Virus record (IMG/VR): IMGVR_UViG_3300045988_140174
Location: 34,574 to 98,573 of that record
DNA: 64,000 nucleotides
Source of the DNA: a virus
Reading direction: 5' to 3' (one strand)
Position numbers and translations under genes: made by a program. Below the pieces are notes generated by a model that made no database searches, was not told the origin of the DNA, and was given only the letters and a program-made list of their open reading frames with translations. Positions 3,485 through 63,470 of the stretch are shown piece after piece. The stretch's first letter is position 1; each line of letters opens with the position of its first letter.

Positions 3485-3506
3485 GTTTCCAATCTCCTTT
3501 TACTCA

Positions 3507-5537: not shown

Positions 5538-5558
5538 GATACGCCTCCTATTTATTTA

Positions 5559-6146: not shown

Positions 6147-6171
6147 TTTATTATCTCCTTTTTCTCTAAAA

Positions 6172-6212: not shown

Positions 6213-6234
6213 AATAGTTATATTAAGGTTTTAA

Positions 6235-7341: not shown

Positions 7342-7358
7342 TATTCTTCTCTCCTTTC

Positions 7359-8294: not shown

Positions 8295-8312
8295 TTAAGT
8301 ATGTCCTCCTTA

Positions 8313-9902: not shown

Positions 9903-9913
9903 GATTTACCTCC

Positions 9914-11575
9914 TTAATTCATTGACTCTTTATTTTTTATGGTTTTTTCACTTTTCTAATCATCAGCCTTTTCAGGTCGCCCAGACTATTTTGTTTCAGT
10001 AGTCTGTTTTGTAGTAGTCTATTGATTACTACTTCCTGAATTATTTTGTGTTTTATTCTAATTGTTTGAACCTTTATTACCCAAAACATCTTGACTACTC
10101 ATAGTAGAAGACATTAATGGTGGGATCATAATTTCAGTTAATTTCAACACATCATTTTCAAATACCGCAGTATTTAAAATAAAACTCTAAGAGTGACCAA
10201 GAGCAATTTGAGGTAGCATCTTAGAATAACCAAGTTGCGTTTGTTCTTTATATAATTTTGACATTTCTTTATAATTATATTGTGTAGTTTCAAGCATATA
10301 AAATTTAAAACTATATTTCTTATTATTCGCAACTTTCATCTTTACTATTCTATCAAAAAAAATGTTAAATTGCAACAACAAGTTTCTAACAGTTGATTCA
10401 TCATTAAGGATAGACTTCTCTAATGATAAATTACCATCAGTATTAAATAGATTTTGAGAAATACCTAAATTATTATAAACAGTACGCTCAACTTTTGCTA
10501 AATCATCTGTAGTAGTTGTAGTATTTTTATCTGATAAATCAATAGATTGAACATCAGTAAATGTTGTTAAAACATCAACACCAATAGCTCTTGATAACAT
10601 AGCAACAGCATTATTATGTATATCACGAGATTCATCAATATCAAATATTAAATCACCATTTTTATCCATGGGAAGTTTTTGAACAATAATTTTTAGCAAC
10701 TTCTACATTTGTTTTCTGCGGTCTAAATCTTGAGCAGCATCTAAATCCATAAGAGCAGGAATAGAATTAATAAATGGTGGAGTATCGCTACCATTAAAAT
10801 TAAATTTCACACTTAATTCTGGAGATAGTAAATACCAACTTCCACTATAATCTCCCTTAATATCAGGAAGTAATTTTCCTTTCTTATATAAAACATATCC
10901 GCGCTAAAATTCTTCGGGGAATAATTTTAATACGCGCATACGATAATTAGGATCTGGAAACTAATCAAAAAACCGCATATCAAACTCAATTGCTGGCATA
11001 CCAGCCACAAAGTATCTAGAACGGCAATAGCTAGCAGGCAATTCTTGTAGCATTAAACTATTTGCAGATTGCACTATATATCCATAATAGCAACCATTTT
11101 TCATAATACTTTGAGCAATATCACCGCAGATTTTTTTAATATAAGTATTATCTAAGTAATTTAATAACTTTGAAAAATCTTTTAAAACTTTTTCATCTTT
11201 TACCGTATCATCTAAAATTTCTGGAGCGACATACCAATCATATCTATACAAATAAGCAAAATAATTACATACTCGCTCATAAATGCCGCTAATATCATAA
11301 AATAAATTAGAAATTCTACGCATTTCAACAATATCACGATTTATCATAGCTCGTAATACATCATTTTTAGTGACCATGCGACATGGTCCACGACGATTAG
11401 GATATAGTCGAGCGAATGACCCTAAATCTAATACAGCATCATCTAATGTTTGAACCCCAACTTTTATCTTACGATATTCTGTTGGATCAGCAGTTCGATA
11501 ATCACTTGTTCCATTGCTGATATTAAATCCTTTGGAGTGGATGATTTCCTAACGTGATAATTCTTTAGTATCCAA
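9914..11575 (-). CDS. portal-protein candidate, about 553 aa, 3 in-frame TAG
   Basis: RBS AAGGAGGTGG + TTG start at 11575; includes track ORFs 10961..11377 and 10187..10699 in frame; located right after terminase; size typical of portal. Confidence 0.5.
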
Positions 11576-11587
11576 AATTCCACCTCC

Positions 11588-11944
11588 TTAATATCCAGCT
11601 AATTGCATTATATAATCATATGTAATAAGATTTTCATCTGTATAAGGAATCTCTATTAATTTAAAATCATGTAAAGCGCAAAAACGTCGTTTTTGATTAT
11701 CATTATATTGTTGTTGATATAAACCTTTTTTACCACCAAATTTCGCGCTAGGCTCATAGTGCTATTTACCCTAATATTCAATAATAAAATCAATTCTACC
11801 ATCATCATCAAAAACGACAAAATCGAAACGTAAGGGTCTACCACTTGGTGCCTTCAAATCTGGAAAAATATATTCCATCTTAAATGGTAATTCAGCTTGT
11901 CGCAAAATTTCTTCAATTTTAATTTCGCCTCTAGACGCTCTCAT
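11588..11944 (-). CDS. small PD-(D/E)xK-like endonuclease (homing-endonuclease-like), 118 aa, 2 in-frame TAG
   Basis: motif RFDFVVFDDDGRIDFIIEY*GK*HY...IEIPY, paralogous to the C-terminus of 40812..41741; lies between terminase and portal genes. Confidence 0.55.
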
Positions 11945-11954
11945 AATTACCTCC

Positions 11955-13688
11955 TCAATTCAAGAAACACCAATCTTTAGCATTAAACTTTTTACGTTTC
12001 TTCTTTTTATCTTCTTCTAATTTTAAATAATATAGTCCATATTCAAAAGCAGAAAATTTATCTTTTCGGATACTTTTATTTGCTTGCTTCAGGATAATAT
12101 TTACTCCTTCAGTTTCTTCACGTAAATTCATCATTTCTTCTTTTAATATGGAAGTTAATGTAAATGGTTTTAATTCTTCTGCCCTCTATTCTGGAGTCAT
12201 AGTTTGACCTTTCTTTTTAGCAAGAAGTTTATTTTTTGCTACGCGCTCATCAATTAAAAATTTCACTTTTCCAGAAGCAAGTTGTGATTTAGCAATCGCG
12301 TGGGCCTCTGTGTTGAGTGGCGCATTAGCTTTTATAATATACATAGCATCTAATACTGTATTAGATGTTTTATATTTTTTATAAAATAAATCATCGTCAT
12401 TAACAACACCAAAATCAGGGAAAATTTCATTGGTTTCAGGGTCAATCTACGTCTTAACCATATAATCAATTAAACCAATTCCTAAACCATTACCATCAAT
12501 TACAATTCTATCAGCATTATATTTATAATATAATTTTTTTAATTTAATAGTTTGGTCTTCAAAATGTTCATCAGATAATGTATATATATTTACTAAACTT
12601 TTAATTGAACCACCTTGTGATTGTGGAGTTACTTTAAATACACAAATAACTGAATCGCATCCTTTACGACCAACATCGACAGCAAGTACATAAGATGCTA
12701 ATTTTGAATTACGCCCGGATGCTTCATATTCAGGCTAATTTAATATTCTATTTCTATCAAATATTTCAGCATTAAAAAATGCATCTTCTACTGTGCCAGA
12801 CCATTTACTTTCATACTCTCGGTCAAATGAACTTTCATTGAACGTTCCGTCCATTTTTAAGTCTTTAATAAAATTCGCATCTAACAATTTCATTAAAACA
12901 GGAATACGATAAGTACCACCCATAATAATAGATTGCTAAGGTTTAACAATCTCCCAAACTAATAATTGGATTAATTTATCATAGGGGAAAGTATTTTTAT
13001 ATCCAGCAGTAGTAATATAAATTTGAGATTTATTAAGAGTTTCATCAGGTTGAGTAGTACCATCCATACACATACGAGAAATATTCATTGTAGGAATAAT
13101 AACTTGTGATAAAATATCGCCATCAACGCCAACACACTCTTCAATTAAACCACCATGGCGACGTTTACCACGAGAAGACTCTCTCGCGGCAATATTATCA
13201 AAATATGAACCATTTTTAAATACATATTTAACATAATCCTTACCTTCAAGTGTCTAACCACGGCGCCAATCTATTTCTTTCTAAAATGCAGGAATAAGAG
13301 TACAAATTTCTTGAACTTTTTCTTTTACAATTCCAGCCGCTTGTTCTTTACCACCAGAAGTAATAAATAATTTACATCTGGGGTATAAAATCGCACGACA
13401 CATTAAGACCATCATTGACAAAAAAGATTTTGAATAAGCACGAGGGAATACAGCATAAATATATTTATGACGCATCGCAGCGCGCAAAAAGATTCTCTAA
13501 TAAAAATAGAGTTTAAAATGTTGAGGGCCGCCATCAGGTCCTGCCATAAAGTCGATAAACATATCTGGATATTCTCTCCAAAAGGCTATGTACTGTCTTG
13601 CTTCTGGTATAATCGCACGAAGACGGTCCTCTGAAATTCCAATCTTTTTACGCTTCTAAGATAAATCAAGTAAATCCTATAAAGCCAT
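11955..13688 (-). CDS. terL: terminase large subunit, 577 aa, about 10 in-frame TAG
   Basis: N-terminal ATPase region (CKLFITSGGKEQAAGIV) and RNaseH-like nuclease region (LAVDVGRKGCDSVICVFKV...VIDGNGLGIGLIDYM); track ORFs 13281..13487 and 12735..12923 share the frame; ends TGA. Confidence 0.85.
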
Positions 13689-13689
13689 A

Positions 13690-14886
13690 TTATCCTTCTA
13701 AATTCCTTAAAGTCTGAGCGTCTATTTCAGACTCTTCCTCAAGGAAATCATTATATTCAATTAAATCTTCATCTTTAAGATGATCGATTTCCTCCATCGT
13801 TAAATCTTCTTCAATATCTTGGTCTTCTTCTTTATTTTCTTCTTCTTGCATTTTCTTAATAGCCCCTTCAATGAGATTACCTAAATTCATCTCTTCGGTG
13901 ACTAATGTGTGTGTATAGTTCTTTAAATCTTGTAAAGTTTCATCAACTTTATCTTTTGGACCTTCTGTATAATAACGAGGAATAAATCCTTCAGTTTCAC
14001 ACATGGCCACTAATTCTCCAATAGAATCAAATGCTTCTCCTGTATCTGCTTTGTTTTGAGCGGCGGTGAAATTACCTGATTTCATTAGACTATCATAAAC
14101 CTTGCTCATCTTTTGGAAACCTTCGATATCACCAATATCGATCAACTAGTTTGCTTTTAAGGATGTCTTACAAATTAATTTTAATGTATCAATATGACCA
14201 GCGCCACGGATATCATAAGAACTCATCATTTCTTCATAGAGTTGCTCTAGTTTAACCCATTCTTCGGGTTTATATGCTTTACCCCACTTCATACGAAGAT
14301 ATAAAATATCTTCTTCTGTTAAATCGAGGTCATCTGCTGGGTCATGTTCAATACCATTCTATTGATCAAAATAATCATCACCATCTCTAAAACGTTCTGG
14401 TAATTCAGGAGTGTAAGGTTTTAATTCTTCTTCTGGAATAGCGACAGTAGATTTAGCAATAGCTGTTGCTATTTGCTGGGCATCATAGCCTTGTCGTTTC
14501 ATAGTTTGTTCTAATTTATTATTAGCCACTTCCTATAAAAACTCAGAATCTTTCCATCGATAATCTCTATATTGTTTAAGTTTCATTTTGGACAAATATC
14601 TACCTAAAATACTCATACCAGTTAATTTAGATTTATCTTGTCCATATTTTACCATTAATTTACTCCACTCATCTGGAACATAAGGTACATCAATTTCTTG
14701 TAGAATCCACATATAAGTTTCTGGATTCCAATTATCTACAAGCATTGTAATACATTTTTTACATTGAGGGAGTTTTCCATCATTTGGATATTTTTCTAAA
14801 TTATTAGATGTATAAAACTGGTCAGCGCCCATAGTTCTATTACATCGTTCGCAATAATATACTTTTTTATCATTATCTACAGTCAT
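13690..14886 (-). CDS. zinc-ribbon protein with acidic C-terminus, terminase small subunit candidate, 398 aa, 2 in-frame TAG
   Basis: immediately upstream of terL; N-terminal CERC...CKKC; track ORFs 14533..14886 and 13690..14145 joined in frame. Confidence 0.4.
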
Positions 14887-14928
14887 AATTTTCCTCCTTA
14901 TATCTATCCAATAACAGGCATCTCAAAA

Positions 14929-15993
14929 TTATAACTGTTTGCCCTTGTTTTTAGCATTACGGCATTTTTTACAAATACTATAATAACCATCTTTGCTAGT
15001 TTTATTTTTGCTAAAATATTTATTATGTGCTAATTTAATTTGCCCACAGCGACTACATTTTTTATATTTACCTTTTGCTTTATGTAAATAATAATCATAT
15101 AGGTATTGGTCTTCAGCCGCAGAGGCGATTAATTTTGGAATTTTATTGCGCCATAAACTAGAAATATATTCTAAACTATGAGTAATATTAAATTCCTCTT
15201 GAATTTTCTTTTGAATGTCTATATTCTATAATCCATCAATTTTATATTCAACTATTCTATCATATAAGGGATAATCTTTAAGAGCAATGGTACATAAATT
15301 ATCGAAATCTTCCATAATATACCATAAATCTCTTTCAAAATCTCCCCAACTATCTTGCTTTAAACGAGAATAATTACATAAAATTGCAGAACATACTCTA
15401 GGGTCTAAGAGTGAAACGCCATCCGGAATTGGATAACCATCATCATCAAAAATACAAGTCGTGTCCTCTAATGGAATAAAATTTCTTGAACGAGTAATTT
15501 TAGTCATAACAATTGGACGACGAACTGCATTTTTAATAACATACTAATCTTTACGCATTTCAATAATAGCACGTTTAATTATAAATGCCTCGCGTCCTTC
15601 GCTAACTCGTAATTTGGCTTCCCAAGTAGTAATGGCGTCTCTTAACTATTTTAAATGAGGTATTTCTTCTATATCTTTTTTAGTAATTGTAATTTTAGGC
15701 TAAAATATTGTATTTTTATTTTCAGTAATTAAATTATAAATTCCATCTTCGCCATTCTCAAATTGGGAAACAAGACCTTCAAAAGATGTTTCACGTTTAT
15801 TAACTGTTGCCATACGATTATCAGTTAATAATTTACGCTCCTTTTTCTCTTGTTTCTCCATACAAAGAATGATATAGTCCCCTAATATTTCTAAATATCG
15901 AGGAGAGGGGTCTGGGGTTTCCTCTAATATTTTCTTGACTAATTCATTTCTTTCTTCTGGAGTTTGTAAGGAATAATCTAATTTTATCATCAT
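14929..15993 (-). CDS. hypothetical protein with C-terminal zinc ribbon (CSRCGQ...CKKC), 354 aa, 3 in-frame TAG
   Basis: track ORFs 15700..15993 and 15226..15507 in same frame, continued through TAGs to TAA at 14929. Confidence 0.5.
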
Positions 15994-39863: not shown

Positions 39864-40616
39864 ATGATTGAAGGTCTCTACCCGCCGTTTCAGCATTGGG
39901 GCGCGTCTGGTACGACGTGGATTATTTCCGATACGCATTTCAATGACCCCGACCTCATTCATGTATATGCTGACCGTCCCTCCGCAGAAGAGCAGGTGAA
40001 GCGCATCAATGCTAAGTGCGGTCGCGCTGATACGTTGATTATCCTTGGTGATGTTGGCGATATCTCCTATGTGCGTCAGTTGCGCGCTAAGTATAAGATT
40101 CTCGTGATGGGCAACCACGATTCTGGTGCCTCCAATTATCAGCGTCAGATTTTCAGACAGAAGTTTGATAAGGGTCTGTTCCAGAAGCATGAGGCATTGG
40201 ATGAGATGAAGCGTCTCTATCCTGATTGTGCCTATTCCATTACCGATAGTTATGATTATCTCGATAATTTCCCTTGTTGGGAGGTTCGCGCTGATAATAA
40301 ATTATTTGATTTGGTGTTTACGGGGCCGGTTATGATTTCTGAGAAGCTGATGCTCTCTCACGAGCCTATCAATATGATTCCTTGGGCGTTTAATATCCAT
40401 GGTCATGTTCACGACCGTCGCGCTAAGAACAACGGCAACCATTTCAATGTGTGCGCTGATGTGATTGGCTACGAGCCTATCAACTTTAACAAGTGGATGA
40501 AGGAAGGCCATCTCGCAAACATCGTATCCATTCACCGTGATACAATCGATAGAGCCACATCTAACGCTCGTAAACGAGGTTATAGATTAGGTCGAAAAAT
40601 GTCCGGACAAAAATAA
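39864..40616 (+). CDS. calcineurin-like metallophosphoesterase, 250 aa
   Basis: ISDTHFN (DxH), ILGDVGD (GDxxD), MGNHD (GNHD), HGHVH motifs. Confidence 0.8.
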   Translation: MIEGLYPPFQHWGASGTTWIISDTHFNDPDLIHVYADRPSAEEQVKRINAKCGRADTLIILGDVGDISYVRQLRAKYKILVMGNHDSGASNYQRQIFRQKFDKGLFQKHEALDEMKRLYPDCAYSITDSYDYLDNFPCWEVRADNKLFDLVFTGPVMISEKLMLSHEPINMIPWAFNIHGHVHDRRAKNNGNHFNVCADVIGYEPINFNKWMKEGHLANIVSIHRDTIDRATSNARKRGYRLGRKMSGQK

Positions 40617-40660
40617 ATAAATTTATAAAAATGTTTTTTATAATAATCAGAGGTGATTTT

Positions 40661-40810
40661 ATGAAAAACAATAGAGATAGTCGATTAGAAATTCGATTAC
40701 CAGAGGATATAAAAATAGAATTTCAAGAATACGCTAAAAAGTATAAAACAACTATGAGTTCTATTTTATTGGCTTATATTTTATATTTAATCCAAGAGGA
40801 GGAGAAATAG
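40661..40810 (+). CDS. ribbon-helix-helix protein, 49 aa (ends at TAG 40808; if TAG is sense it runs 4 more codons to TAA)
   Basis: SRLEIRLPEDIKIEFQEYAKKYKTTMSSIL, Arc/CopG-like; RBS AGAGGTGATTTT-ATG. Confidence 0.5.
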   Translation: MKNNRDSRLEIRLPEDIKIEFQEYAKKYKTTMSSILLAYILYLIQEEEK

Positions 40811-40811
40811 A

Positions 40812-41741
40812 ATGGGATTTAAAGTTGATTTAACAGATTAGCGATTCGGACGATGGACAGTATTAGGCTTCGACTGTAATAAAAATAAAAAAAATTATTG
40901 GAAATGTAAATGTGATTGTGGAACTGAACGTAGTGTCGTAGGTAGTCATCTAGTTAACCAAAATTCAAAGTCTTGTGGGTGCTTATCAAGAGAAATAACC
41001 GCACAGCGTTCACGTAAAGATATTACAGGTTAGAAATTTGGGCGATTAATAGCTTTATATTCAACTAATACAAAAACTAATAATGGAAAATATATTTGGC
41101 ATTGTTAGTGTGATTGTGGTAATGTGGTAGATGTACCTATTGATGCCTTAACCACAGGAAATAAAAAATCTTGCGGGTGTTTATCTCGTGAAAAAGCTAG
41201 TGAAAGATTTGGTATTGATGAAACAGGAAATGTTTATGGCAAATCGACTGTAATTAAACGGGATACGTCTTAGGTTTATAATCATATTCACTGGTTATGT
41301 CAATGCTCTTGTGGCAATCCTGAATTAGAATCTATTAGTGGTGTTTCATTAAGGTTAGGAAAAAGAATAGCCTGTTCTAAATGTCGACCTCGTTCCAAGG
41401 GAGAAGAATAGATTCGTGATATTTTAATAGCGAATAATATTAATTTTATCCAAGAAAAATCATTTGATGATTGTCGTTTTCCAGATACTAATCGGCTAGC
41501 TAGATTTGATTTTTATGTCAATAATAGTTATATAATTGAATTTGATAGCAAATAGCATTCAGAAGAAACGTCTGGTAAATATAGTAATTGGCAATCATTG
41601 GATTACGTACAAGCTCACGATGAAATTAAAAATAATTATTGCTTAAAAAATAATATTCCAATGATTCGAATACCTTATCATAAATTAAACAATATTCAAT
41701 TAGAAGATTTATTAATAGAAACTTCAAAATATAAATTCTAA
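40812..41741 (+). CDS. homing-endonuclease-like protein, 309 aa: 3 Cys-rich zinc-finger repeats + C-terminal PD-(D/E)xK-like domain; 6 in-frame TAG
   Basis: repeats ..*RFGRW..CKCDCG....SCGCLSRE x3 with TAG at the same repeat position; C-terminus RFDFYVNNSYIIEFDSK*HSEE...IRIPY is paralogous to 11588..11944. Confidence 0.6.
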
Positions 41742-41762
41742 CTTAGGAGGGAGGAAACCGCA

Positions 41763-41921
41763 ATGATTGTTATTTTCATACTTGGCATTGTAGCAATAGT
41801 TAATTTGCTTTTGGCTCTCTATGGATTTAGAGGTAATTTCTCTCCGTTTATTAGTCTATCTCTTATGATTTCTGGAATGGCCAACGCAATTACTACCGCA
41901 GTAATTCTATTAGGAGTTTAA
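41763..41921 (+). CDS. tiny membrane protein 1, 52 aa
   Basis: RBS TTAGGAGGGAGGAAACCGCA-ATG; one or two transmembrane helices. Confidence 0.55.
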   Translation: MIVIFILGIVAIVNLLLALYGFRGNFSPFISLSLMISGMANAITTAVILLGV

Positions 41922-41922
41922 T

Positions 41923-42111
41923 ATGAATAAAATACTGTTTGCTCTCGTTCTCACAAGTATCAGCTTTTTCTTTTTTAATACGTTTCTCCACGAAAAGAGT
42001 GAGAGTAAATTATTCGATATTATGACAGCATTTATGTGTATCCTTGTCGCAGTTGCTCTCATTACTATGTGGATTGTCCTCATTGTTCAATTGATTGGAG
42101 GAACGCTATGA
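41923..42111 (+). CDS. tiny membrane protein 2, 62 aa
   Basis: two transmembrane helices; tightly packed with neighbours. Confidence 0.55.
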   Translation: MNKILFALVLTSISFFFFNTFLHEKSESKLFDIMTAFMCILVAVALITMWIVLIVQLIGGTL

Positions 42112-42281
42112 TATTCCGCCTTATCCTCCTTATGGTTCTTGGAGCCTCTATTTGTATAGGCATTGAGACAATGTGGCACGCTTTCAAAAATGGGAAATGG
42201 CCTCTTGGAATAGTAGTAATTTTTGAGGTTATAGGATTTATTCTTATGACTATATTCTTTATCAAGGAGCAAGTACTATAA
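42108..42281 (+). CDS. tiny membrane protein 3, 57 aa
   Basis: two transmembrane helices; ATGA overlap. Confidence 0.55.
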   Translation: MIFRLILLMVLGASICIGIETMWHAFKNGKWPLGIVVIFEVIGFILMTIFFIKEQVL

Positions 42282-42457
42282 TGTTTTTCAATATTTTGAA
42301 CCAACTCCTTTTGTTTATTTTCGGTCTTATGTTGTTAGCCATTACTATTAACAACATCGAAGAGCCTTATCTCAATCATAAATGGGGTATCATTCTCCCA
42401 TTTATTGGGGCTATGTCTTGCGCGGCCTGTATTATTCATAATTTGTTTCAGGGGTGA
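42281..42457 (+). CDS. tiny membrane protein 4, 58 aa
   Basis: two transmembrane helices; TAATG overlap. Confidence 0.55.
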   Translation: MFFNILNQLLLFIFGLMLLAITINNIEEPYLNHKWGIILPFIGAMSCAACIIHNLFQG

Positions 42458-42657
42458 TTACTATGTCTATTTTTGGTATTATTACATTTGCCCTTTGTAT
42501 GGTTATTATTTTTGCTTATATGTATAAATCTTATCATATACTTAAATATTACCGTGAGCAGGGCAAATGGTTCATTTGGGCAGTTTTGAATATTCTGTCT
42601 ATCACAATTATCGTGGAGACCACTGAAATTATCGTGGAGGTTGCTCATCTATGCTAA
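42454..42657 (+). CDS. tiny membrane protein 5, 67 aa
   Basis: two transmembrane helices. Confidence 0.55.
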   Translation: MITMSIFGIITFALCMVIIFAYMYKSYHILKYYREQGKWFIWAVLNILSITIIVETTEIIVEVAHLC

Positions 42658-53803: not shown

Positions 53804-55543
53804 ATGAATCTGTATGACGCCCTGACTACGGAAGATATTGACCTGATTCGTGCTTACATTGAGGCATATGGCGGCAAGAATGATGAATATGATGCGACTG
53901 GTTGTTGTGTTCAGTCTATGCCGAATACGATGGCGCCGTGGGCAGAGGCTAAGGAGCGTCTCTATACGATGTTCGGTGAGCAGCTTATTCTGAGGAAGTC
54001 CTTTAACTTCTCTAAGGGCGTCGATGAGTTGGCCGATGAAATCAATGATGCTCGTTATCGCAGAGATGGCAATGGTATCTCTGAGATGGACAATTTGATT
54101 CGTGAAAATTTCTGGCCTCGGAATATTTATTCCGCTTTGGGTCTGGATGATGACCAGGCGGATAATATTTGTCGGCTGATTGATTCCTATATGCTGGCTA
54201 ATAACTCTTGGAGCCGCACTGAGTTCACTGTGAATGGCGTTCGTGTGAATACTGGTGCTAAGGCTGTGAAGATTCTGGGCAAGATTCTCGCCACTTTTGA
54301 GAACCCTGAGTGGAACGAAATCTTTGAGCAGTTCCGCCTGGAACATTCTCGTATTCTCAATCAGAAGAAGCTGACTGGCGAACTGTGCCTGTCTATTCAT
54401 CCTCTGGATTATATGACTATGAGTGATAACAACGAGGGTTGGGACAGTTGTATGAGCTGGCAGGCTTGCGGTGATTATCGTCAGGGCACCGTAGAGATGA
54501 TGAACTCTCCTTGTGTCGTGGTGGCATATCTGCGAAATCCCGGCTATGAGATGGACATTCCCGATGGTCATTGGAACAGCAAGAAGTGGCGTTGCCTGTT
54601 TGTTGTCGACCGCGATGTTATTGTTAATATCCGCGAGTATCCCTATTGTAATGATGAACTGGTAGGCGAGTGCCTGAATTGGTTGAAGAGCCTGGCCGAG
54701 AAGAACCTTCATTATCAGTATCGTGATACTACTTGTCGGTATCGCGCAGATTGCGAGAATAGTGTTCAGGTTGGCGAGAAGAAAATTCCTGTGAATTTTT
54801 CTACTGGTCATATGTATAGCGATTTCCGTTTTGAGCATCTGATGTATCTGAATGCCGCTCTGCCGGATAATATTAACATTTATTACTCTGGTGTGAGTGA
54901 GTGCCTGGGTTGCGGTAAGACTTCTAGCGGCTATGATGAAAGTCTCCTGAGTTCCAACGATTTGATTTGTCATAGCTGTAATGGCGATGGCGAATGCGAA
55001 GAGTGTGGTCGTTATTGCGATGCTGAGGAATTGTATGAGGTTGAGGGCCGTTTGATTTGTCAGAATTGCTATGATAACGAGACTGCTGAGTGTCCTGTTT
55101 GTCAGCGTGAGGTTGACCTCCACAATGAAAAGTGTGAAGATTGGCGCGACCAATTGCCTGACCCTGAACGCCATTTCATCCGTAGCGATAATACATTTGA
55201 AATCGCGTTCAATGGCTATATCACTCATCTTCACTTTGATACTCTGTGTGAGTGTTGTGCTAAGAAAATTCGTTCTGGCGAAATCAAGGATTATGGCCCC
55301 GTTGAGCAGTTTGTTGATAAGTGGAGCATTTCCCATACCTATCTGGATTTGGAGAAGATGACTGAGGACGCTGTTCAGGATGTTATTCCTTGGAACGGTA
55401 AGGGCTGGATGGAGCATCGCAGAGATAATCCTAACCGCAGTTGGGTAAGTCTCAAAACAGGATATTGCGATTTTGATAAGGGTTATTTCATTGATGAAGA
55501 CGGGAACGAAATCGAAAATCCTCGCAAAATCTTCTTCTCCTAA
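53804..55543 (+). CDS. large Cys-rich protein, 579 aa (paralog of 58165..59628); family unknown
   Basis: shared core LSIHPLDY...W.SC...Y..G......Y.......WNSKKWRCL...YPY; C-terminal zinc-ribbon cluster. Confidence 0.75.
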   Translation: MNLYDALTTEDIDLIRAYIEAYGGKNDEYDATGCCVQSMPNTMAPWAEAKERLYTMFGEQLILRKSFNFSKGVDELADEINDARYRRDGNGISEMDNLIRENFWPRNIYSALGLDDDQADNICRLIDSYMLANNSWSRTEFTVNGVRVNTGAKAVKILGKILATFENPEWNEIFEQFRLEHSRILNQKKLTGELCLSIHPLDYMTMSDNNEGWDSCMSWQACGDYRQGTVEMMNSPCVVVAYLRNPGYEMDIPDGHWNSKKWRCLFVVDRDVIVNIREYPYCNDELVGECLNWLKSLAEKNLHYQYRDTTCRYRADCENSVQVGEKKIPVNFSTGHMYSDFRFEHLMYLNAALPDNINIYYSGVSECLGCGKTSSGYDESLLSSNDLICHSCNGDGECEECGRYCDAEELYEVEGRLICQNCYDNETAECPVCQREVDLHNEKCEDWRDQLPDPERHFIRSDNTFEIAFNGYITHLHFDTLCECCAKKIRSGEIKDYGPVEQFVDKWSISHTYLDLEKMTEDAVQDVIPWNGKGWMEHRRDNPNRSWVSLKTGYCDFDKGYFIDEDGNEIENPRKIFFS

Positions 55544-57124: not shown

Positions 57125-58165
57125 ATGCGAGTGATGAAAGATTCTGAGTATCTAGCATTTAAGCAGTTAGCCAAGCTCACTCAAGATCAAATGATTAGGG
57201 CTATGCGTGCGGTGTTAGAGGCTCGTTATACCGATATTATCGCAACAAAGGAATATATTGTAGCCAAGGGAGATATTCCTATCGGATTGGTTGCCCATAT
57301 GGATACAGTGTTCCCGCTTCCTCCTACTGAAATTTATTATGATACTACACAAAATGTTGTGTGGAGTCCGCAGGGTCTTGGAGCTGATGACCGCGCCGGT
57401 ATATTTGCGATTCTTCAAATTCTGAAGACTACAAAATTGCGTCCGCATATTATTTTGACAACTGATGAAGAGAAGGGCGGATGGGGCGCATACGCCCTTG
57501 TTGAACAGCATCCAGATTTTCCGTTTGATGATTTGAAATATCTGATTCAGTTGGACCGCCAGGGCGCGAATGATTGTGTGTTTTATGATGGTATCAATGA
57601 AGATTTTATCCGTTATGTATCTTCTTTTGGTTTCGTAGAGCATATTGGTTCATTCAGCGATATTAGTATTCTGTGTCCATTCTGGGATGTGTGCGGTGTC
57701 AATCTTTCTGTCGGTTATAAAAATGAGCATAGTCTCATTGAAACATTAAATATTAGCCATTTGTTCGATACCATCCAAAAGGTGAAGAGAATGTTAATGG
57801 TGAAGGAAATTCCTGACTTTGAGTGGAAGGAAAAATACTATCCTTATTTCACTAATGGGTATCCTCTGGATGATGACATTGATGAGTATAGCGCGGCTTA
57901 TGGTTATAATTGGGTAAATGATAAACGCTCTGTTGATGCTTATACAGTAATTTGTCATAATTGTAAGAAGCCATTTTATAATTATGAAACATTCCCCACT
58001 AAGAAAATTGATGGTGGAACTATGTTCTTGTGCCCCGATTGTGTGGGCGACCATGCTAATTGGTGCGATTGTTGTGGCGAAGCATTTGAGCGTACACCGG
58101 AAAATGCCGGGGCTACTCTTTGCCCTGACTGTGCGAAAATTGAGAAGATTAAGGTTAAAGGTTAA
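57125..58165 (+). CDS. M20/M42-family metallopeptidase-like protein with C-terminal zinc-ribbon domain, 346 aa
   Basis: GLVAHMDTV, GADDRAG, TTDEEKGGWGA, GYKNEHS metal/catalytic motifs; C-terminal CHNC...CPDC...CDCC...CPDC. Confidence 0.65.
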   Translation: MRVMKDSEYLAFKQLAKLTQDQMIRAMRAVLEARYTDIIATKEYIVAKGDIPIGLVAHMDTVFPLPPTEIYYDTTQNVVWSPQGLGADDRAGIFAILQILKTTKLRPHIILTTDEEKGGWGAYALVEQHPDFPFDDLKYLIQLDRQGANDCVFYDGINEDFIRYVSSFGFVEHIGSFSDISILCPFWDVCGVNLSVGYKNEHSLIETLNISHLFDTIQKVKRMLMVKEIPDFEWKEKYYPYFTNGYPLDDDIDEYSAAYGYNWVNDKRSVDAYTVICHNCKKPFYNYETFPTKKIDGGTMFLCPDCVGDHANWCDCCGEAFERTPENAGATLCPDCAKIEKIKVKG

Positions 58166-59628
58166 TGAAGAGTTATAATTTAGATGAACTAAAACAGCAA
58201 GTCAAACACGTATTAGAGTATAGTCAGGGTATTTATGATGTGAGTGAGGACGCTCTTGATAATATGATGAGTGAATGGGAGCGTAATAAAGCACGATTCA
58301 TTAATGATTTTATGGGCGGCAAACTCATTGTGGAGTTGCCAGGCAAACGCTCCTTTCATTTGGGAGAAAAGGCAAAACTCAAGAAATACAATGATTTTTT
58401 GGATTATGTTGTTCTGCGAATGAATAATTATGAGTTATGCCGATTTATTGAAGCGCAGGGCGAAGAAGGATTTTATGAGAACACCGTAAAAACTGGTTGG
58501 GACCATACTAAGAGTGATACATTTATTTCGCCGGGATCTAAACTAATACGAGCATTTAAATATTTCATTGAAGATAAGGATTTGCTGGAAACTGTTCAGA
58601 ATGAGGCCAGTCGTATTATTCAAGGAGACTGTATCGAAGGCATTCTTTGTATATCAGTCCATCCTCTTGATTACCTCAGTTTAAGTGAAACTACATATAA
58701 CTGGCGTTCTTGCCATGCTCTTGATGGCGAATATCGCGCTGGTGATTTGAGTTATTTGATGGATGGTAGCACATTTATCTGTTATCTGAGAGGCGATGAT
58801 AAACAAAACCTCCCTTCATTTCCCGATGATTTGCTCTGGAATAGTAAGAAGTGGCGTTGTTTGGGCTTCTTGGCTGATGATGAAAATGGTATCATTATGG
58901 GCCGTCCTTATCCCTATGAGGCCGCAGATATTATTAATGAACTTCGTTGGGAAGTGTTTAATAGAGAATGGAATTTGGGCCTTGGTAGTTGGCGCGCAGA
59001 CGCCATTCGTTCGGTTCAAGACCGCTTAACTAACTGGGATGAAGATTTGAATCGTACTTATATCCCTTGGAATGGCCGTCTTGTAGAACTTGATAAAACT
59101 GTTCATGATTGTCCAAGTCCTACTCATTATAATGATATTCTTTTATCCAGTTGTTATTTGCCTATTTATGCTCGTGGTAAAGGATATTTTGGCAAAAATG
59201 ATTGGAAGAAGGTTCAGTATCATATTGGACACTCAGTAATGTGTATCCATTGTAATTCTGAGTATGTGTCTCCTGGTGATGGCACGATGATGTGCCATTC
59301 TTGTGAGATTAGATATGGCAATTCTGACAGTGATGATATTGTTTATTGTGAGAATTGCGGTTGTCGTTTATGGTATGAAGACGCAATTGTTGTTGGAGAC
59401 AATGGAAATTATCTTTGTGATGAATGCGCTAGTAGAATCACTAAAACTTGTAGAGATTGCGGTAATCCATATTACATTGATGATTTAACATACCATAAAG
59501 ATGATGAAGATGAAAACGGCGGATATTATTTGTGCGGATGGTGCGAGCAAGATAGACAGGACACGGAAGAAATCGCAGAAGATGAATCTTCTACTACTAC
59601 TATCAACTTTGATGAGTTTGATCTGTAG
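58165..59628 (+). CDS. large Cys-rich protein, 487 aa (paralog of 53804..55543)
   Basis: shared HPLDY/WNSKKWRCL/YPY core and zinc ribbons. Confidence 0.75.
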   Translation: MKSYNLDELKQQVKHVLEYSQGIYDVSEDALDNMMSEWERNKARFINDFMGGKLIVELPGKRSFHLGEKAKLKKYNDFLDYVVLRMNNYELCRFIEAQGEEGFYENTVKTGWDHTKSDTFISPGSKLIRAFKYFIEDKDLLETVQNEASRIIQGDCIEGILCISVHPLDYLSLSETTYNWRSCHALDGEYRAGDLSYLMDGSTFICYLRGDDKQNLPSFPDDLLWNSKKWRCLGFLADDENGIIMGRPYPYEAADIINELRWEVFNREWNLGLGSWRADAIRSVQDRLTNWDEDLNRTYIPWNGRLVELDKTVHDCPSPTHYNDILLSSCYLPIYARGKGYFGKNDWKKVQYHIGHSVMCIHCNSEYVSPGDGTMMCHSCEIRYGNSDSDDIVYCENCGCRLWYEDAIVVGDNGNYLCDECASRITKTCRDCGNPYYIDDLTYHKDDEDENGGYYLCGWCEQDRQDTEEIAEDESSTTTINFDEFDL

Positions 59629-59747
59629 TCATTAAATACAAGACCTATATATTATATACACGATGAAAATGGCGAATGGATACCTATTACGCGAGTGCGT
59701 CAAATACCTCCGCCAGAACGTGAATAATTATTTAAATATTTAAGGAG

Positions 59748-60125: not shown

Positions 60126-60827
60126 ATGTATAATCAAATTATTGAAGAATTAGAAGTTCTTAAATAGAATTTTGATAGTGAAGATATTGTATCATATCAA
60201 TTACTTTTAATTAAAATTAAGAAAATTATTGATTTGATTAATGATAAACAACTTGAGGAAGCAGATAAAAGCAAATTATCTAATTATATTCGAGATTATT
60301 TAGCAAGTTTGCATTTAAATAGAATTTTCACAATTTCTGATTTGAATGAATTATTTATTCCAGAAGTGAAAGATTTAGATATTGGTAATAAAAATATTTA
60401 TATTACAATTTTTAATTTATTCGTGGAAGAATTATCTGATGTAGATAATATTTTTTCTCAAAAACTTAAATACTGTATTACAAATATGATTTCTAGAATT
60501 GCTGCTTCTGTAGATGAAACAATGGTTACAGAAGATAAAACTCAAGAAACTGTAATTAATGAACCTGTTCAAATTATTCCAACTATAAATACAGTAAATA
60601 CTAATTCATTCGATTTGGATATTGATATTACTAATAAAAATTATTTGAAAGAATATATTATGCGTAAAAATTTAAAACCTTATAGATGTGATATTTGTGG
60701 ATTAAGTTCCTGGCAAAACAATCCTCTTATGCTATATTTATACAGTAAAAATCATATTTATTCAAATAAAAATTTAGAAAATTTGATGTTTTTATGCCCT
60801 AATTGCTATTCTCAGATTGGAGAGTAA
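60126..60827 (+). CDS. HNH-like endonuclease-domain protein, 233 aa, 1 in-frame TAG
   Basis: C-terminus YRCDICGLSSWQNN...LYSKNHIYSNKNLENLMFLCPNCY; RBS TAAGGAGATTTAAA-ATG. Confidence 0.5.
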
Positions 60828-60830
60828 TTT

Positions 60831-62018
60831 ATGTATTATAATTCTTATAATTAGAATTATTTTAATGAATTAAATAAAATATTCAATAAATTTGATACTA
60901 ATAATATTAATGATTATTATAATTTATTTAAATTAATATATGATATATATTTTAATGAAAATGTATTTATAATTGTTAATGATGATATAAAATATCAATT
61001 AGAATCAAATTTAAAATTACTTATTAAAAAAAATAATTGGTTTATAGATTTTGAACAAACTGAAAAAAATATATTAATTTCATTATTTATTATAATTACT
61101 TAGAAAATTAATTTTGGAAATTATTATCAAATTAATAATACATTAAAACAATAGATTGAATCATTATTATTAGATAAAAATTTAATTAATGAAAAAATGA
61201 TTCATGATAGTAAAAATGTTTTTCATTTAGTTGATAGTTTTCCTGAAAATGAAAGTATGATTAAATTTTTTAAGCAATATAATATTGATATTATGAATTA
61301 GGAATTTTTAACTATTGGTAATACGAAAATTCCTAATTTTTATTTAAAACAAAAAAATAAAATGATAGATCATTATTATGAATTTTGCCATTTATTATTT
61401 AAAATTTATAGTCCAATCTTATATTATGGTGTTTCATTTGAAGAAGGATATGAATATAAAATAACTAATAAAGATATTGTATTTGATTGTGGCGGAAATA
61501 TGGGACTATTCGCGCTATACTGTGCTTCAAAAGGCGCGCAAGTATATTGTTTTGAGCCTATGTCTTATATTAGAGATTTTTTATATGAGAGTCAAAAATT
61601 ATATCCTGATTTAATCCATATTATTCCTTGTGGAGTGTTTAATAGAAATTAGGAACAATATTTTTCTCAAACCTATAATCCAGGAGCTGGATCGAATTCA
61701 ATATTTCATGAATTAGAATATACATCTGATAGATTATATAAAGAAAAATGTAAGTTAATTACATTAGATTCATTTAGTTAGAATAATCATATTATTCCTA
61801 CATTTATTAAAGCAGATATTGAAGGGTCTGAAGCACAAATGCTTGAAGGCGCTTCACAAATTTTACAAACATATAAACCAACTATGAATATTTGTTTAAA
61901 TCATCGGACGGAAGACCAATATAATATTCCTACCCTTATTTATAATATCAATTCTAATTATTCATTTTATTATTTTATTGAAGGAGAAATACATTCTAAA
62001 TTTGTATTGTGTAAATAA
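60831..62018 (+). CDS. FkbM-family SAM-dependent methyltransferase with a 177-aa N/I/K/Y-rich N-terminal extension, 395 aa, 6 in-frame TAG
   Basis: DCGGNMGLFALY...FEP and IKADIEGSE motifs; single frame from ATG 60831 through track ORF 61362..61652 to TAA 62016. Confidence 0.55.
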
Positions 62019-62020
62019 AT

Positions 62021-62974
62021 ATGCCAAATATTATTTTAACAGAATATTGTAATCTTCAATGCCCTTACTGTTTTGCTAGTAAAATGATTGAAGAAAAAAC
62101 AGATGATACTAAAAATATTTCTCTTGAATAGTTAGATATGATTTTAAAATGGTTATTACCTTCAGCAACAAATTTAGATCGGATTGGATTAATTGGAGGA
62201 GAACCTACTTTACATCCTTAGTTTAGAGAGATATTAGGTAGAATAAATTCATTTAATGAATTTACAAATACTTCTTCAATAGTATTTACGAATGGAATTA
62301 ATTTAAGTGAATTTTTATCTGCTATTGGACCAAATATGTCAATTTTAATTAATGTAAATAAATTGACTGGTAAATCATTAAATAAACTTAATAGTGTATT
62401 AGATGAAATTAATTATTTAAGTTGGTTTAAAATTGATAAAGTTATTTTAGGATGTAATTTATATCAAAATGAAAATGATTATTCTTATTTTTGGAATGTA
62501 GTTGATAAATATCCAGATATTTTAAGAATAAGAATGTCTATTACTGCACCCAATAGCAAAGAATTAAGAGTAAATAAAAAATTGTATTATACTATTATGA
62601 AACCTATATTATTACAATTTTTAGAAGAAACTAAAAAACGTGATATAAAAATTTCATATGATTGTAATTAGATTCCGTTATGTTTATTAAACAATGAAGA
62701 ATAGAATTTAATAAATCAATTAGGGGAATTAAATAGTTTTTGTGAGCCCGTTATAGATATTACTCCAGATTTTAAAGCTACTTGCTGTTTTGGTGTTTAT
62801 GATAATCCCATTCAATGTAATGATTTTAATAATATCGAAGAATTAACTAGATATTTTAAAAATCAAATAGTAATAAAAACTATAAATAATAACACTTCCA
62901 TGTGCAAAGATTGTAAAAAATTACAACTTGCTCAATGTCAAGGAGGATGTTTATCATTTTCTAATGTTGGGTAA
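62021..62974 (+). CDS. radical SAM enzyme with C-terminal SPASM/twitch domain, 317 aa, 4 in-frame TAG
   Basis: CNLQCPYC (Cx3Cx2C), GGEPTLHP; C-terminal CCFGVY...C...CKDCKKLQLAQCQGGC. Confidence 0.7.
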
Positions 62975-63032
62975 GTATAAGTAATAAAGTTTTATAATTT
63001 TTTAATTCTAAAAAAGAAGGAGGAATTTTTTT

Positions 63033-63470
63033 ATGGCAAATATTACTTATGAATTAATTTTTAAATTTGCTTCTGGTAAAGAGGTAAATTTTATCGATGA
63101 AGAACATACATTTTCTATTGTAGAAGATTATCGTTCTCCAGTTCTTTTAACCCCTCAAATGTTTGGTATTGATGATTTACGTGAGTATTATGCATTATTA
63201 TTAATTGATGGTAAGCCTATGGAGGATTATGCATCAAATTATTGTAATTTTAAAAATTTTGGTAATTCTATTGTTGATTTGCTTAATAATAAAGATACTA
63301 TTTCAGAAATTATTTTAAAAGATATTGATACTAAAGGAGAATATTTTCATATAAATTCTGATCAATTAGTAGGTATTGAAGCTGGCGGAGGAACTGATAG
63401 AGGCTTTGATAATATAATGGTATACCGCATACAAATTTATTATAAAAAAGTTGGAAAAATAGGTGAGTAA
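63033..63470 (+). CDS. hypothetical protein, 145 aa
   Basis: RBS AAGAAGGAGGAATTTTTTT-ATG. Confidence 0.65.
   Translation: MANITYELIFKFASGKEVNFIDEEHTFSIVEDYRSPVLLTPQMFGIDDLREYYALLLIDGKPMEDYASNYCNFKNFGNSIVDLLNNKDTISEIILKDIDTKGEYFHINSDQLVGIEAGGGTDRGFDNIMVYRIQIYYKKVGKIGE

What the first reader, a model, noticed from the sequence alone, without database searches (positions are those of the whole stretch)
40630..41750. AT-rich homing-endonuclease insertion with TAG codons at conserved repeat positions, and a paralogous mini-endonuclease between terL and portal
A 1.1-kb, approximately 30% GC cassette (RHH gene + 309-aa endonuclease) interrupts a 42% GC operon. The endonuclease has three zinc-finger repeats, each with TAG at the same position (TD*RFGRW, TG*KFGRL, TS*VYNH). 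Its C-terminal PD-(D/E)xK-like domain (FDFYVNNSYIIEFDSK*HS) is paralogous to the 118-aa protein at 11588..11944 (FDFVVFDDDGRIDFIIEY*GK*HY), again with TAG at the equivalent position. Positional conservation of TAG across paralogs and repeats is strong internal evidence that TAG encodes an amino acid, and these sites could reveal which one. The window also has an HNH homing endonuclease (43847), an HNH-like gene (60126) and a GIY-YIG protein (31132), which is a high load of selfish nucleases.
Basis: partly seen in the sequence, partly recalled or inferred. Interest (0 to 1): 0.65.

Follow-up and report, generated by a model that had tools for sequence, protein, structure and literature searches.

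The report
Amber-recoded homing endonuclease cassette in phage
A 1.16-kb selfish DNA-cutting gene cassette has inserted behind a phosphoesterase gene of a gut phage that reads the stop codon TAG as glutamine; each element of this has been described before, so it is a clean example, not a new kind of system.

The parts
40589..41747 (+). Inserted cassette (RHH gene plus homing endonuclease gene), 1,159 bp, 29.8% GC
   Evidence: Window-only gap in the global alignment with L011, which is otherwise collinear at 90-98% nt identity. Also absent from L010. 99% identical to L001 while the flanks are 62-90% identical.
39864..40616 (+). Calcineurin-like metallophosphoesterase gene, the insertion target. 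Its last codons (MSGQK*) are supplied by the cassette.
   Evidence: Pfam Metallophos E=2.7e-9. C-terminus is ...RLGRKPQ* in empty alleles and ...RLGRKMSGQK* in filled alleles.
40600..40609 (.). Perfect 10-bp palindrome TGTCCGGACA at the left end of the cassette. Candidate RHH operator (inferred).
   Evidence: Unique in the window. Conserved at the left end of every cassette copy despite 60-70% protein divergence: window, L001-L005, L115. Absent from the other fetched loci.
40661..40822 (+). RHH-like gene, 53 aa when TAG at 40808-40810 is read as Gln. Overlaps the endonuclease start by 11 nt.
   Evidence: PHROG Arc-like repressor E=4.6e-4; Pfam RHH_5 E=0.011, below cut-off. AF2 model pLDDT 86; all top Foldseek hits are RHH proteins such as AmrZ, CopG and Arc. 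Relatives encode sense residues across the TAG and carry internal TAGs at Gln positions.
40812..41741 (+). Free-standing homing endonuclease gene, 309 aa. Six TAG(Gln) codons at 40839, 41031, 41106, 41271, 41409 and 41553.
   Evidence: 1,872 homologues, best 98%. PHROG 374/559/7140/9084 at E=1e-45 to 1e-21. TAG coordinates.
40824..41390 (+). Three tandem Cys-rich beta-beta-beta-alpha modules (aa ~5-67, 69-133, 135-193), the presumed DNA-binding region
   Evidence: Invariant Cys pattern WxCxCxCG...SCGC. AF2 secondary structure, pLDDT ~90. PHROG 374 matched in three stretches.
41391..41741 (+). Vsr-like (PD-(D/E)xK superfamily) nuclease domain with invariant D233, E243, D245, H249, D270 and K273
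41747..41765 (+). Right junction. The native ribosome-binding site and start (GGGAGGAAACCGCAATG) of the downstream gene is re-created after the cassette.
   Evidence: Same sequence as in the empty site of L011 (GGGAGGAAGCCGCAATGA) and at the right junction of L001.
11588..11944 (-). Paralogous 118-aa Vsr-like mini-nuclease between terL and portal. TAG codons at 11771-11773 and 11762-11764.
   Evidence: 33% identity, E=4e-15 to the endonuclease C-terminal domain. PHROG 9084 E=4.6e-27. Found in the same terL-portal position in standard-code Enterococcus phage VRE9_4 (terL-mini-portal annotated). Directly downstream of terL in H1, EF1, MT836163 and phAss-1 by hit coordinates. IEVNGEQHYEP versus IEY*GK*HYEP.

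Best explanation
The window comes from a large gut phage that decodes TAG as glutamine (genetic code 15). Its terL is 52% identical to Enterococcus phages VRE9_4/H1/EF1 and 44% to phAss-1.

At 40589-41747 it carries a free-standing homing endonuclease cassette inserted at the very 3' end of a metallophosphoesterase gene. The cassette has three elements:
- a conserved palindrome, TGTCCGGACA;
- a 53-aa RHH protein;
- an overlapping 309-aa endonuclease, made of three Cys-rich (probably Zn-binding) DNA-recognition modules and a Vsr-like catalytic domain.

Inferred mechanism. In a mixed infection the enzyme cuts the cassette-free allele of a related phage near the phosphoesterase 3' end. Recombinational repair then copies the cassette, plus some tens of bases of flank, into the recipient. 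The cassette supplies substitute final codons for the phosphoesterase and restores the ribosome-binding site and ATG of the next gene, so the insertion is nearly neutral.

The endonuclease has an amber codon at codon 10 and five more downstream, in a neighbourhood that is otherwise almost TAG-free. It can therefore be made only once amber suppression is active. Its production is thus probably timed with the late genes. The RHH protein most likely autoregulates the cassette through the palindrome.

Shown: gene structure, TAG = Gln, fold, insertion polymorphism, mosaic identity, TAG usage. Inferred: cleavage target, timing, RHH role.
For: TAG = Gln:
- terL aa 64 (FY*R) and aa 145 are Gln in three standard-code phages. 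Several portal TAG columns are also Gln.
- Repeat motif: Bacillus phage PBC6 has DITGQRFGKLVA twice.
- Nuclease motif: EYDGKQHYEP in the Staphylococcus phage PSU4 intron protein.
- TAG and CAA/CAG interchange among recoded homologues at aa 10, 74, 99, 200 and 248.
- Q is the majority residue at columns 10, 74 and 248.

Insertion and mobility:
- Empty sites in L011 and L010.
- Cassette 99% identical to L001 while flanks are 62-90% identical.
- Same site occupied in L002-L005 and L115. There the endonuclease is 65-70% identical while the phosphoesterase is only 50-55%.
- Relatives with 59-71% phosphoesterase identity lack the cassette.

Free-standing: no Rfam intron.

TAG gating:
- 6 of 13 Gln codons are TAG, against 2 of 144 in neighbouring plus-strand ORFs (Fisher p=2.3e-6). 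Late genes have 54 of 188 (p=0.21).
- The same logic was proposed for a TGA-recoded intron endonuclease in Agate phages (bioRxiv 10.1101/2021.08.26.457843).

Code-15 relatives with suppressor tRNAs: phAss-1 (PMC10607447). A tRNA-CUA is present in L022.
Against: - No suppressor tRNA lies in the 64-kb window, so the decoding agent and its timing are unobserved.
- 'Early' and 'late' are inferred only from strand, gene content and TAG distribution. Most plus-strand genes have unknown function.
- The cleavage site is unknown.
- High TAG content could simply be inherited from AT-rich, late-type donor composition and need not be selected as a timer.
- The window's allele differs from L001 at five residues. 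These include G246S at a position invariant in 49/49 homologues and L145S at one conserved in 48/49. This particular copy may be impaired or inactive.
- RHH assignment rests on sub-threshold sequence hits and a single-sequence model.
Confidence: 0.8

Rival explanations
1. The RHH-plus-nuclease pair is a toxin-antitoxin-like or defence/exclusion module. The RHH would be the antitoxin or repressor and the nuclease the toxin. The pair would be kept for addiction or for attacking competing phages, and would not spread by homing.
For: The gene order fits a type II TA operon: a small RHH gene first, overlapping the nuclease gene by 11 nt. Many of the RHH model's structural neighbours are antitoxins such as AtaR, VapB, TacA, MazE and ParD.
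Against: - No PADLOC or NCBIfam hit for either protein.
- The nuclease carries three sequence-recognition modules and belongs to families whose members sit in group I introns.
- The element is polymorphic at one precise site, with mosaic identity.
- 80 other family members lack the RHH partner.
Confidence: 0.07
2. The endonuclease ORF is a decaying pseudogene and its TAGs are genuine stops.
For: Six TAGs, the first at codon 10. The window's copy has substitutions at invariant residues (G246S, L145S).
Against: - There is no TAA or TGA in 309 codons of 30% GC sequence. None of 20,000 shuffles stayed open.
- TAGs fall on Gln columns.
- Homologues at 65-71% identity keep intact ORFs with TAGs at partly different positions.
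- Essential terL and portal genes carry nine TAGs each.
Confidence: 0.03
3. The cassette is an old vertically inherited resident that was deleted in L010 and L011, not a recently mobile element.
For: It occupies the same gene end in distant relatives. The locus downstream is a general hot spot of small-gene gain and loss.
Against: - The cassette is 99% identical between the window and L001 while adjacent sequence drops to 62-70%.
- The endonuclease is more conserved (65-70%) than the flanking phosphoesterase (50-55%) in distant carriers.
- Junction points differ between lineages. L002 retains the native 3' end of the gene downstream, flanked by a 17-nt direct repeat.
Confidence: 0.08

Closest known systems
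I-Bth0305I and the 'EDxHD' / Vsr-like homing endonucleases (PDB 3R3P; PMC3239194)
   Different: I-Bth0305I is intron-encoded and uses two NUMOD2/HTH-like motifs. This protein is free-standing (no intron) and uses three Cys-rich beta-sheet modules. Sequence similarity to any PDB chain is undetectable.
Recoded group I intron endonuclease in an early gene of Agate phages (Borges et al., bioRxiv 10.1101/2021.08.26.457843)
   Same: A homing endonuclease located among non-recoded (early) genes is itself strongly recoded. The authors proposed that the in-frame stops delay its production until late infection.
   Different: The Agate case uses TGA as Trp and is intron-borne. Here the recoding is TAG as Gln, and the element is free-standing with an RHH partner gene that is also recoded.
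phAss-1 / 'Caudoviricetes code 15 clade' (OQ749652; PMC10607447)
   Same: Gut siphovirus-type phages with TAG as Gln in terL, portal and other late genes. They are related to Enterococcus phage EF1. A homologue of the mini-nuclease lies between terL and portal.
   Different: Only 44% terL identity, and no nucleotide-level match in the phage collection. The closest relatives of the window are contigs of 128-198 kb. phAss-1 carries three tRNA-Sup(CTA) genes, whereas none lies in this window.
Phage homing endonucleases with repeated Zn-finger DNA-binding modules (CapR/DUF723/DUF4397-type; Barth et al., PMC10055350)
   Same: A 'beads on a string' array of small Cys-containing DNA-binding modules fused to a nuclease domain. 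Modules are shuffled between nuclease types; the same repeat is fused to other C-terminal domains in Bacillus phage PBC6 and Rhizobium phage RHph_N3_2. These nucleases sit at boundaries of genetic exchange.
   Different: Those cases are mainly T5orf172 or HNH nucleases. The repeats here hit no Pfam model, and the nuclease is Vsr-like.

Membership tests
Homing endonuclease gene (operational definition) | Presence/absence polymorphism at one precise site among related genomes | tested here: met
   L011 and L010 lack window 40589-41747. L001-L005 and L115 carry it at the 3' end of the same gene.
Homing endonuclease gene (operational definition) | The element is more similar between genomes than its flanks are (horizontal spread, co-conversion) | tested here: met
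   99-100% identity over about 40520-41760 versus 62-90% in the flanks, window against L001.
Homing endonuclease gene (operational definition) | Site-specific cleavage of the element-free allele | not testable with these tools
   Requires enzyme assays on the L011-type junction.
Vsr-like / EDxHD homing endonucleases (I-Bth0305I) | Vsr-like catalytic fold | tested here: met
Vsr-like / EDxHD homing endonucleases (I-Bth0305I) | Composite E-D-x-H-D catalytic residues | tested here: inconclusive
   Invariant D233, E243, D245, H249 and D270 exist. Residue-by-residue superposition on I-Bth0305I D196/N208/H213/D222 was not done.
Vsr-like / EDxHD homing endonucleases (I-Bth0305I) | N-terminal NUMOD/HTH DNA-binding motifs; location in a group I intron or intein | tested here: not met
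   The N-terminus consists of three Cys-rich beta-beta-beta-alpha modules. No intron was found by Rfam at E<=1. Distant homologues are intron-borne.
Code 15 (TAG as Gln) phages | In-frame TAG in essential genes at columns where standard-code homologues have Gln | tested here: met
   terL aa 64 and aa 145 are Gln in 3 of 3 standard-code phages. Portal aa 205, 463 and 540 are Gln in one or two of the three.
Code 15 (TAG as Gln) phages | Phage-encoded suppressor tRNA(CUA) | tested here: inconclusive
   None in the window, which is only part of the genome. tRNA-CUA is present in distant relative L022, and phAss-1 has three.
Code 15 (TAG as Gln) phages | TAG concentrated in structural/late genes and avoided in early genes | tested here: met
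   54 of 188 Gln codons are TAG in the minus-strand structural block, against 2 of 144 in plus-strand ORFs from 37 to 59.7 kb.
Ribbon-helix-helix (Arc/MetJ/CopG) superfamily | Beta-alpha-alpha fold and significant sequence match | tested here: inconclusive
   Pfam RHH_5 E=0.011, below cut-off; PHROG Arc-like E=4.6e-4. The model has two helices after an extended N-terminus. All top Foldseek hits are RHH proteins (TM 0.66-0.78), but with E>0.1.
Type II toxin-antitoxin / anti-phage defence systems | Match to known toxin, antitoxin or defence profiles | tested here: not met
   No PADLOC or NCBIfam hits.

The most novel reading that the evidence does not exclude
The cassette may be a 'code-locked' selfish element. 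This homing endonuclease lineage (with its RHH partner) would be able to function only in phages that suppress amber codons. Its TAG codons would then act both as a late-infection timer and as a barrier confining its spread to the network of code-15 phages.

All eight carrier contigs fetched at 42% identity or more (L001-L008) need TAG read-through. The conserved palindrome plus RHH may form a self-contained regulatory switch. Such a switch has not been described for free-standing homing endonucleases.
Probability: 0.25. Interest if true: 0.5.

Novelty: new member of a known kind. Interest (0 to 1): 0.3.

Why it matters
The window gives compact internal proof that this phage reads TAG as Gln. 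It also shows, with filled and empty alleles in hand, that a selfish endonuclease cassette circulates among amber-recoded gut phages and uses the recoded codon itself. This supports the published idea that recoding gates the expression of dangerous or late-acting genes. It also offers a tractable test system: a known empty target sequence and a 309-aa enzyme. Practically, standard-code annotation would shatter this gene, terL and portal, so the contig must be annotated with table 15. None of the elements is new in kind.

Tried and rejected
- Megablast of 36-46 kb against 50,697 phage records found no match. Relatives had to be found through proteins.
- Pfam found nothing for the endonuclease. 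A profile search against PDB sequences gave only a spurious MutT hit.
- Promoter/terminator and repeat scans around the cassette found no more than chance, and no terminal repeats in the window.
- Rfam found no group I intron and no RNA at all in the window. The intron-encoded reading is rejected.
- tRNA scans found no suppressor in the window or in close relatives' flanks.
- The IMG/VR scan with the family alignment used a pattern containing 'QH'. Its Gln count at column 248 is therefore circular and was not used as evidence. It shows only that the family has both TAG-free and TAG-bearing members.
- Positional conservation of TAG as a signal in its own right is rejected. With about 45% TAG among Gln codons, shared TAGs at conserved Gln columns are expected.
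- Low GC as proof of foreign origin is rejected, because the late genes have the same composition.
- The RHH gene as a general partner of this nuclease family is rejected. It is absent next to 80 other family members.
Full report
**What is in the sequence.**

Reading 40300-42100 and translating in the correct frames gives the following layout:
- A metallophosphoesterase gene at 39864-40616 (Pfam Metallophos E=2.7e-9).
- An AT-rich spacer containing a perfect palindrome, TGTCCGGACA (40600-40609).
- A small ORF starting at 40661.
- A 309-codon ORF at 40812-41741 ending in TAA.

The long ORF has no TAA or TGA but six in-frame TAGs, at aa 10, 74, 99, 154, 200 and 248. None of 20,000 shuffles of its own sequence stays free of TAA/TGA, so the frame is maintained.

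The small ORF 'ends' in TAG at 40808-40810. Relatives encode sense residues through that point (window K*NGI*, L003 NENGI*, L002 DKNGILD*). They also carry their own internal TAGs at positions where the window has CAA-Gln. The gene is therefore 53 aa (40661-40822) and overlaps the endonuclease start by 11 nt.

However, the whole TAG-using structural block (1050-15993, minus strand) has 32.9% GC. The small membrane-protein genes just downstream (41763-42657) have 34% GC. Low GC alone is therefore not a mark of foreign origin here.

**TAG is glutamine.**

The window has a minus-strand structural block in which terL (11955-13688) and portal (9914-11575) carry nine TAGs each. terL is 52% identical to cultured, standard-code Enterococcus phages (VRE9_4, H1, EF1). 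It is 49% identical to Geobacillus virus E3 and 48% to Alicyclobacillus phage KKP_3916. In alignments with these:
- terL aa 64 (FY*RIFLR) is Gln in all three phages, and aa 145 likewise.
- terL aa 318 and aa 501 are Gln in VRE9_4.
- Portal aa 205, 463 and 540 are Gln in one or two of the three.

For the endonuclease itself:
- The motif interrupted by TAG in repeats 1 and 2 (LTD*RFGRW, ITG*KFGRL) reads DITGQRFGKLVA, twice, in standard-code Bacillus phage PBC6.
- The SK*HS motif reads EYDGKQHYEP in the intron-encoded homologue of Staphylococcus phage PSU4.
- In a 49-sequence alignment, Gln occupies 33, 36 and 48 of 49 rows at columns 10, 74 and 248. Columns 99, 154 and 200 are variable (K/Q/R/E).

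The database homologues were themselves called under code 15. All four look-ups returned 'does not translate to the query' under table 11. At DNA level they exchange TAG with CAA/CAG at the same columns. For example, aa 74 is TAG in the window, L001 and L003, and CAR in L002 and L006.

Repeat 3 has ETGNVYGKSTV, with Asn there. L003 does have TAG exactly there (DLTG*TFGKLTV).

Shared TAG positions need no special explanation. With about 45% of Gln codons being TAG in these genes, conserved Gln columns will often share TAG.

The phenomenon is known for this phage group. phAss-1 (44% terL identity) is filed by NCBI under 'Caudoviricetes code 15 clade'. It was described with TAG-Gln in 41 ORFs and three tRNA-Sup(CTA) genes (PMC10607447). 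No tRNA or any Rfam RNA lies in this window. A tRNA-CUA is present in a distant relative, L022.

**It is an insertion, and a mobile one.**

Relatives were found through the phosphoesterase and through exact look-ups of endonuclease homologues.

*Empty sites.* L011 is a locus from a 197.6-kb IMG/VR contig. It is collinear with the window at 90-98% nt identity from 39.5 to 44.9 kb, except for two window-only segments:
- 40589-41747 (1,159 bp: palindrome, RHH gene, endonuclease gene);
- 41763-41922 (a 52-aa membrane ORF).

L010 also lacks the cassette. In the empty site the phosphoesterase stop overlaps the next gene's ATG (GGGAGGAAGCCGCAATGA). In filled alleles the same GGGAGGAA(A/G)CCG(C/T)AATG re-appears immediately after the endonuclease stop. 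The phosphoesterase also acquires a cassette-encoded C-terminus...GRKMSGQK* instead of ...GRKPQ*.

*Mosaic identity.* L001 (a 2.5-kb Logan contig) carries the same cassette at 99-100% identity from about 40520 to 41760. The adjacent phosphoesterase drops to 62-70% identity and the downstream gene to 73-78%. This is the mosaic expected of recent horizontal transfer with a short co-conversion tract.

*Distribution.* More distant phages (L002, L003-L005, L115; contigs up to 198 kb) carry RHH plus endonuclease at the same gene end. In them the endonuclease is 65-70% identical while the phosphoesterase is only 50-55%. Intermediate relatives (59-71% phosphoesterase identity) have no cassette.

*Junctions.* Junction details differ between lineages. 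In L002 the native 3' end of the phosphoesterase is retained downstream of the cassette, bracketed by a 17-nt direct repeat (ATCATTGACACCGCTAC).

A patchy distribution, one target gene and an element younger than its flanks together are the classical signature of a homing endonuclease gene. No group I intron is detectable, so the element is free-standing.

**What the proteins are.**

The endonuclease has no Pfam, NCBIfam or PADLOC hit. It matches PHROGs 374, 559, 7140 and 9084 ('HNH/intron-encoded/homing endonuclease') at E=1e-45 to 1e-21, and has 1,872 database homologues.

An AlphaFold model built from 49 homologues, with the 98%-identical P0001 as target, has pLDDT 90. It shows three beta-beta-beta-alpha modules, each with five invariant Cys (WxCxCxCG...SCGC), followed by an alpha/beta domain.

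I-Bth0305I is the prototype of the 'EDxHD' homing endonucleases. It is intron-borne and uses NUMOD/HTH motifs for DNA binding (PMC3239194). The present protein differs in both respects. Arrays of small Zn-finger modules on phage homing endonucleases, shuffled between nuclease types, are known (PMC10055350). Here the same repeat is fused to other C-terminal domains in phages PBC6 and RHph_N3_2. Distant standard-code homologues sit in group I introns of Herelleviridae terL genes.

The upstream protein is RHH-like:
- Sequence hits are sub-threshold (Arc-like PHROG E=4.6e-4; RHH_5 E=0.011).
- A single-sequence model (pLDDT 86) has an extended N-terminus and two helices.
- Its best structural neighbours are all RHH proteins (AmrZ, CopG, Arc, several antitoxins), though with non-significant E-values.

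The RHH gene accompanies only this sub-lineage of the nuclease; 80 other family members lack it. The palindrome TGTCCGGACA is unique in the window. It is conserved at the left end of every cassette copy despite 30-40% protein divergence. It lies 51 bp upstream of the RHH start, so I infer it is the RHH operator. This is not tested.

**The paralogue.**

ORF 11588-11944(-), 118 aa, is 33% identical (E=4e-15) to the nuclease domain. It matches the same PHROGs and Pfam DUF2726 weakly. Its second TAG (GK*HY) is at the conserved Gln. Its first (EY*GK) aligns with Asn in VRE9_4 and Asp in the large family.

Unlike the cassette, it is syntenically conserved:
- In standard-code Enterococcus phage VRE9_4 a 50%-identical gene is annotated between terL and portal.
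- In H1, EF1 and the fecal contig MT836163, and in phAss-1, the homologue lies directly downstream of terL by hit coordinates.
- It is absent in Geobacillus E3 and Alicyclobacillus KKP_3916.

Its divergence tracks that of terL, so it looks like an old resident. It may have been co-opted by the packaging module, but that is speculation. It is not a currently mobile element.

**How it most likely works.**

The endonuclease's TAG share of Gln codons is 6 of 13. Thirty-seven neighbouring plus-strand ORFs (37-59.7 kb) have 2 of 144 (Fisher p=2.3e-6). The structural block has 54 of 188 (p=0.21). The endonuclease also shares the late genes' preference for CAA over CAG.

With an amber at codon 10, present in all four cassette lineages examined, no functional protein can be made without suppression. 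I therefore infer that translation is tied to the availability of the suppressor tRNA, that is, to the phase in which the TAG-rich structural genes are translated.

Borges et al. proposed the same logic for a TGA-recoded intron endonuclease sitting in an early gene of Agate phages. It is also functionally analogous to the delayed translation of T4 I-TevI. The I-TevI comparison rests on my own knowledge; reviews that mention it were listed but not read.

The temporal classes here are inferred, not measured. Most plus-strand genes are of unknown function. The TAG content could equally be a passive legacy of AT-rich donor composition.

**State of this copy.**

Against L001 the window's endonuclease has three synonymous and five non-synonymous differences. 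All five depart from the L001 state. At three of these positions L001 carries the residue that dominates the 49-sequence family alignment:
- G246S, in the EFDGKQH motif (Gly in 49/49);
- L145S (Leu in 48/49);
- G9D (Gly in 39/49, never Asp).

This suggests relaxed constraint or loss of activity in this genome. That is the expected fate of a homing endonuclease once it is fixed, but it could also reflect sequencing error.

**Rivals.**
- Toxin-antitoxin or defence reading. It fits the gene order and the RHH fold. It has no profile support, and it does not explain the site-specific polymorphism or the DNA-recognition modules.
- Pseudogene reading. It is excluded by ORF maintenance, Gln-column placement and intact recoded homologues.
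- Old resident with deletions. This is contradicted by the identity mosaic and by the element being more conserved than its flanks.

**Verdict.**

Every component has precedent: code-15 phages, late-biased recoding, a recoded homing endonuclease among early genes, Vsr-like homing nucleases, and Zn-finger repeat arrays. It is a well-documented new member of known kinds.

The only mildly new elements are the RHH partner with its conserved palindrome, and the possibility that the lineage is confined to amber-suppressing phages. All eight carrier contigs fetched at 42% identity or more (L001-L008) require TAG read-through.

Noticed in passing
window 41763-41922: A 160-bp window-only insertion encodes a 52-aa hydrophobic protein. 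It is absent from both L001 (filled) and L011 (empty). It starts at the ATG that begins the next gene in those relatives. L010 lacks further small membrane genes here, so the locus downstream of the phosphoesterase is a gain/loss hot spot.
   Followed up: partly
window 40284-40463: A patch of about 180 bp inside the phosphoesterase gene is only 53-72% identical to L001, L010 and L011. Those three are mostly 85-97% identical to one another there (77-78% in the first 60-bp bin). It looks like a gene-conversion tract from a divergent donor, 130-300 bp from the endonuclease cassette.
   Followed up: partly
window 1050-15993 versus 18000-60000: The window is bimodal in composition and codon use. 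TAG-using structural genes have about 33% GC and prefer CAA (100 CAA, 34 CAG, 54 TAG). The TAG-free plus-strand ORFs from 37 to 59.7 kb prefer CAG (92 CAG, 50 CAA, 2 TAG). GC in the plus-strand block is 41.6% beside the cassette and 46.5% over 18-33 kb. This may reflect adaptation to phage-encoded versus host tRNA pools.
   Followed up: partly
window 6235-7341 and 7359-8294 (-): Two large structural genes, presumably capsid-related (PHROG 4088 and 35301), have zero TAG and 40-41% GC inside the otherwise TAG-rich, 30% GC late block. They use CAG. The most highly expressed late genes may avoid the recoded codon.
   Followed up: no
window 60126-63470: An island of very low GC (20-26%) with TAG-bearing genes: a 233-aa protein with an HNH-like C-terminus (PHROG 10822, E=5e-15; no Pfam hit), an FkbM-type methyltransferase (6 TAG), a radical SAM protein (4 TAG) and a 145-aa ORF. 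It may be a second mobile or modification cassette.
   Followed up: partly
window 14929-15993 (-): A 354-aa protein with 4 TAG matches PHROG 5767 'sigma factor' (E=1.6e-53). It has a Cys-rich C-terminus and sits at the promoter-proximal end of the structural block, next to the divergent junction with the plus-strand block at about 16.0-16.2 kb.
   Followed up: no
window 11588-11944 (-); L029 1794-2162: The Vsr-like mini-nuclease keeps its place downstream of terL in this clade. It is annotated between terL and portal in VRE9_4 and lies next to terL by hit coordinates in H1, EF1, MT836163 and phAss-1. It is absent in Geobacillus E3 and Alicyclobacillus KKP_3916. This suggests an old, possibly co-opted packaging-associated nuclease.
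   Followed up: partly
L002 9250-9372 and 10426-10545: In this relative the cassette is bracketed by a 17-nt direct repeat, ATCATTGACACCGCTAC. The native 3' end of the phosphoesterase gene survives downstream of the cassette, while a cassette-side substitute C-terminus is used. The junction differs from the window's.
   Followed up: partly
window 53804-55543 and 58165-59727 (+): Two large Cys-rich proteins look paralogous by eye. Shared motifs include S(I/V)HPLDY...W(D/R)SC...NSKKWRCL and multiple CxxC pairs near the C-terminus. The function is unknown; the only hit is a weak match to PHROG 18912.
   Followed up: no
L025 2030-5334; L027; L022 9517-9606: Distant relatives found through the phosphoesterase carry large tRNA arrays next to it. 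L025 has 27 tRNAs plus a tmRNA, and L027 has 18 tRNAs. L022 has a tRNA with a CUA anticodon. No such array is in the window.
   Followed up: no
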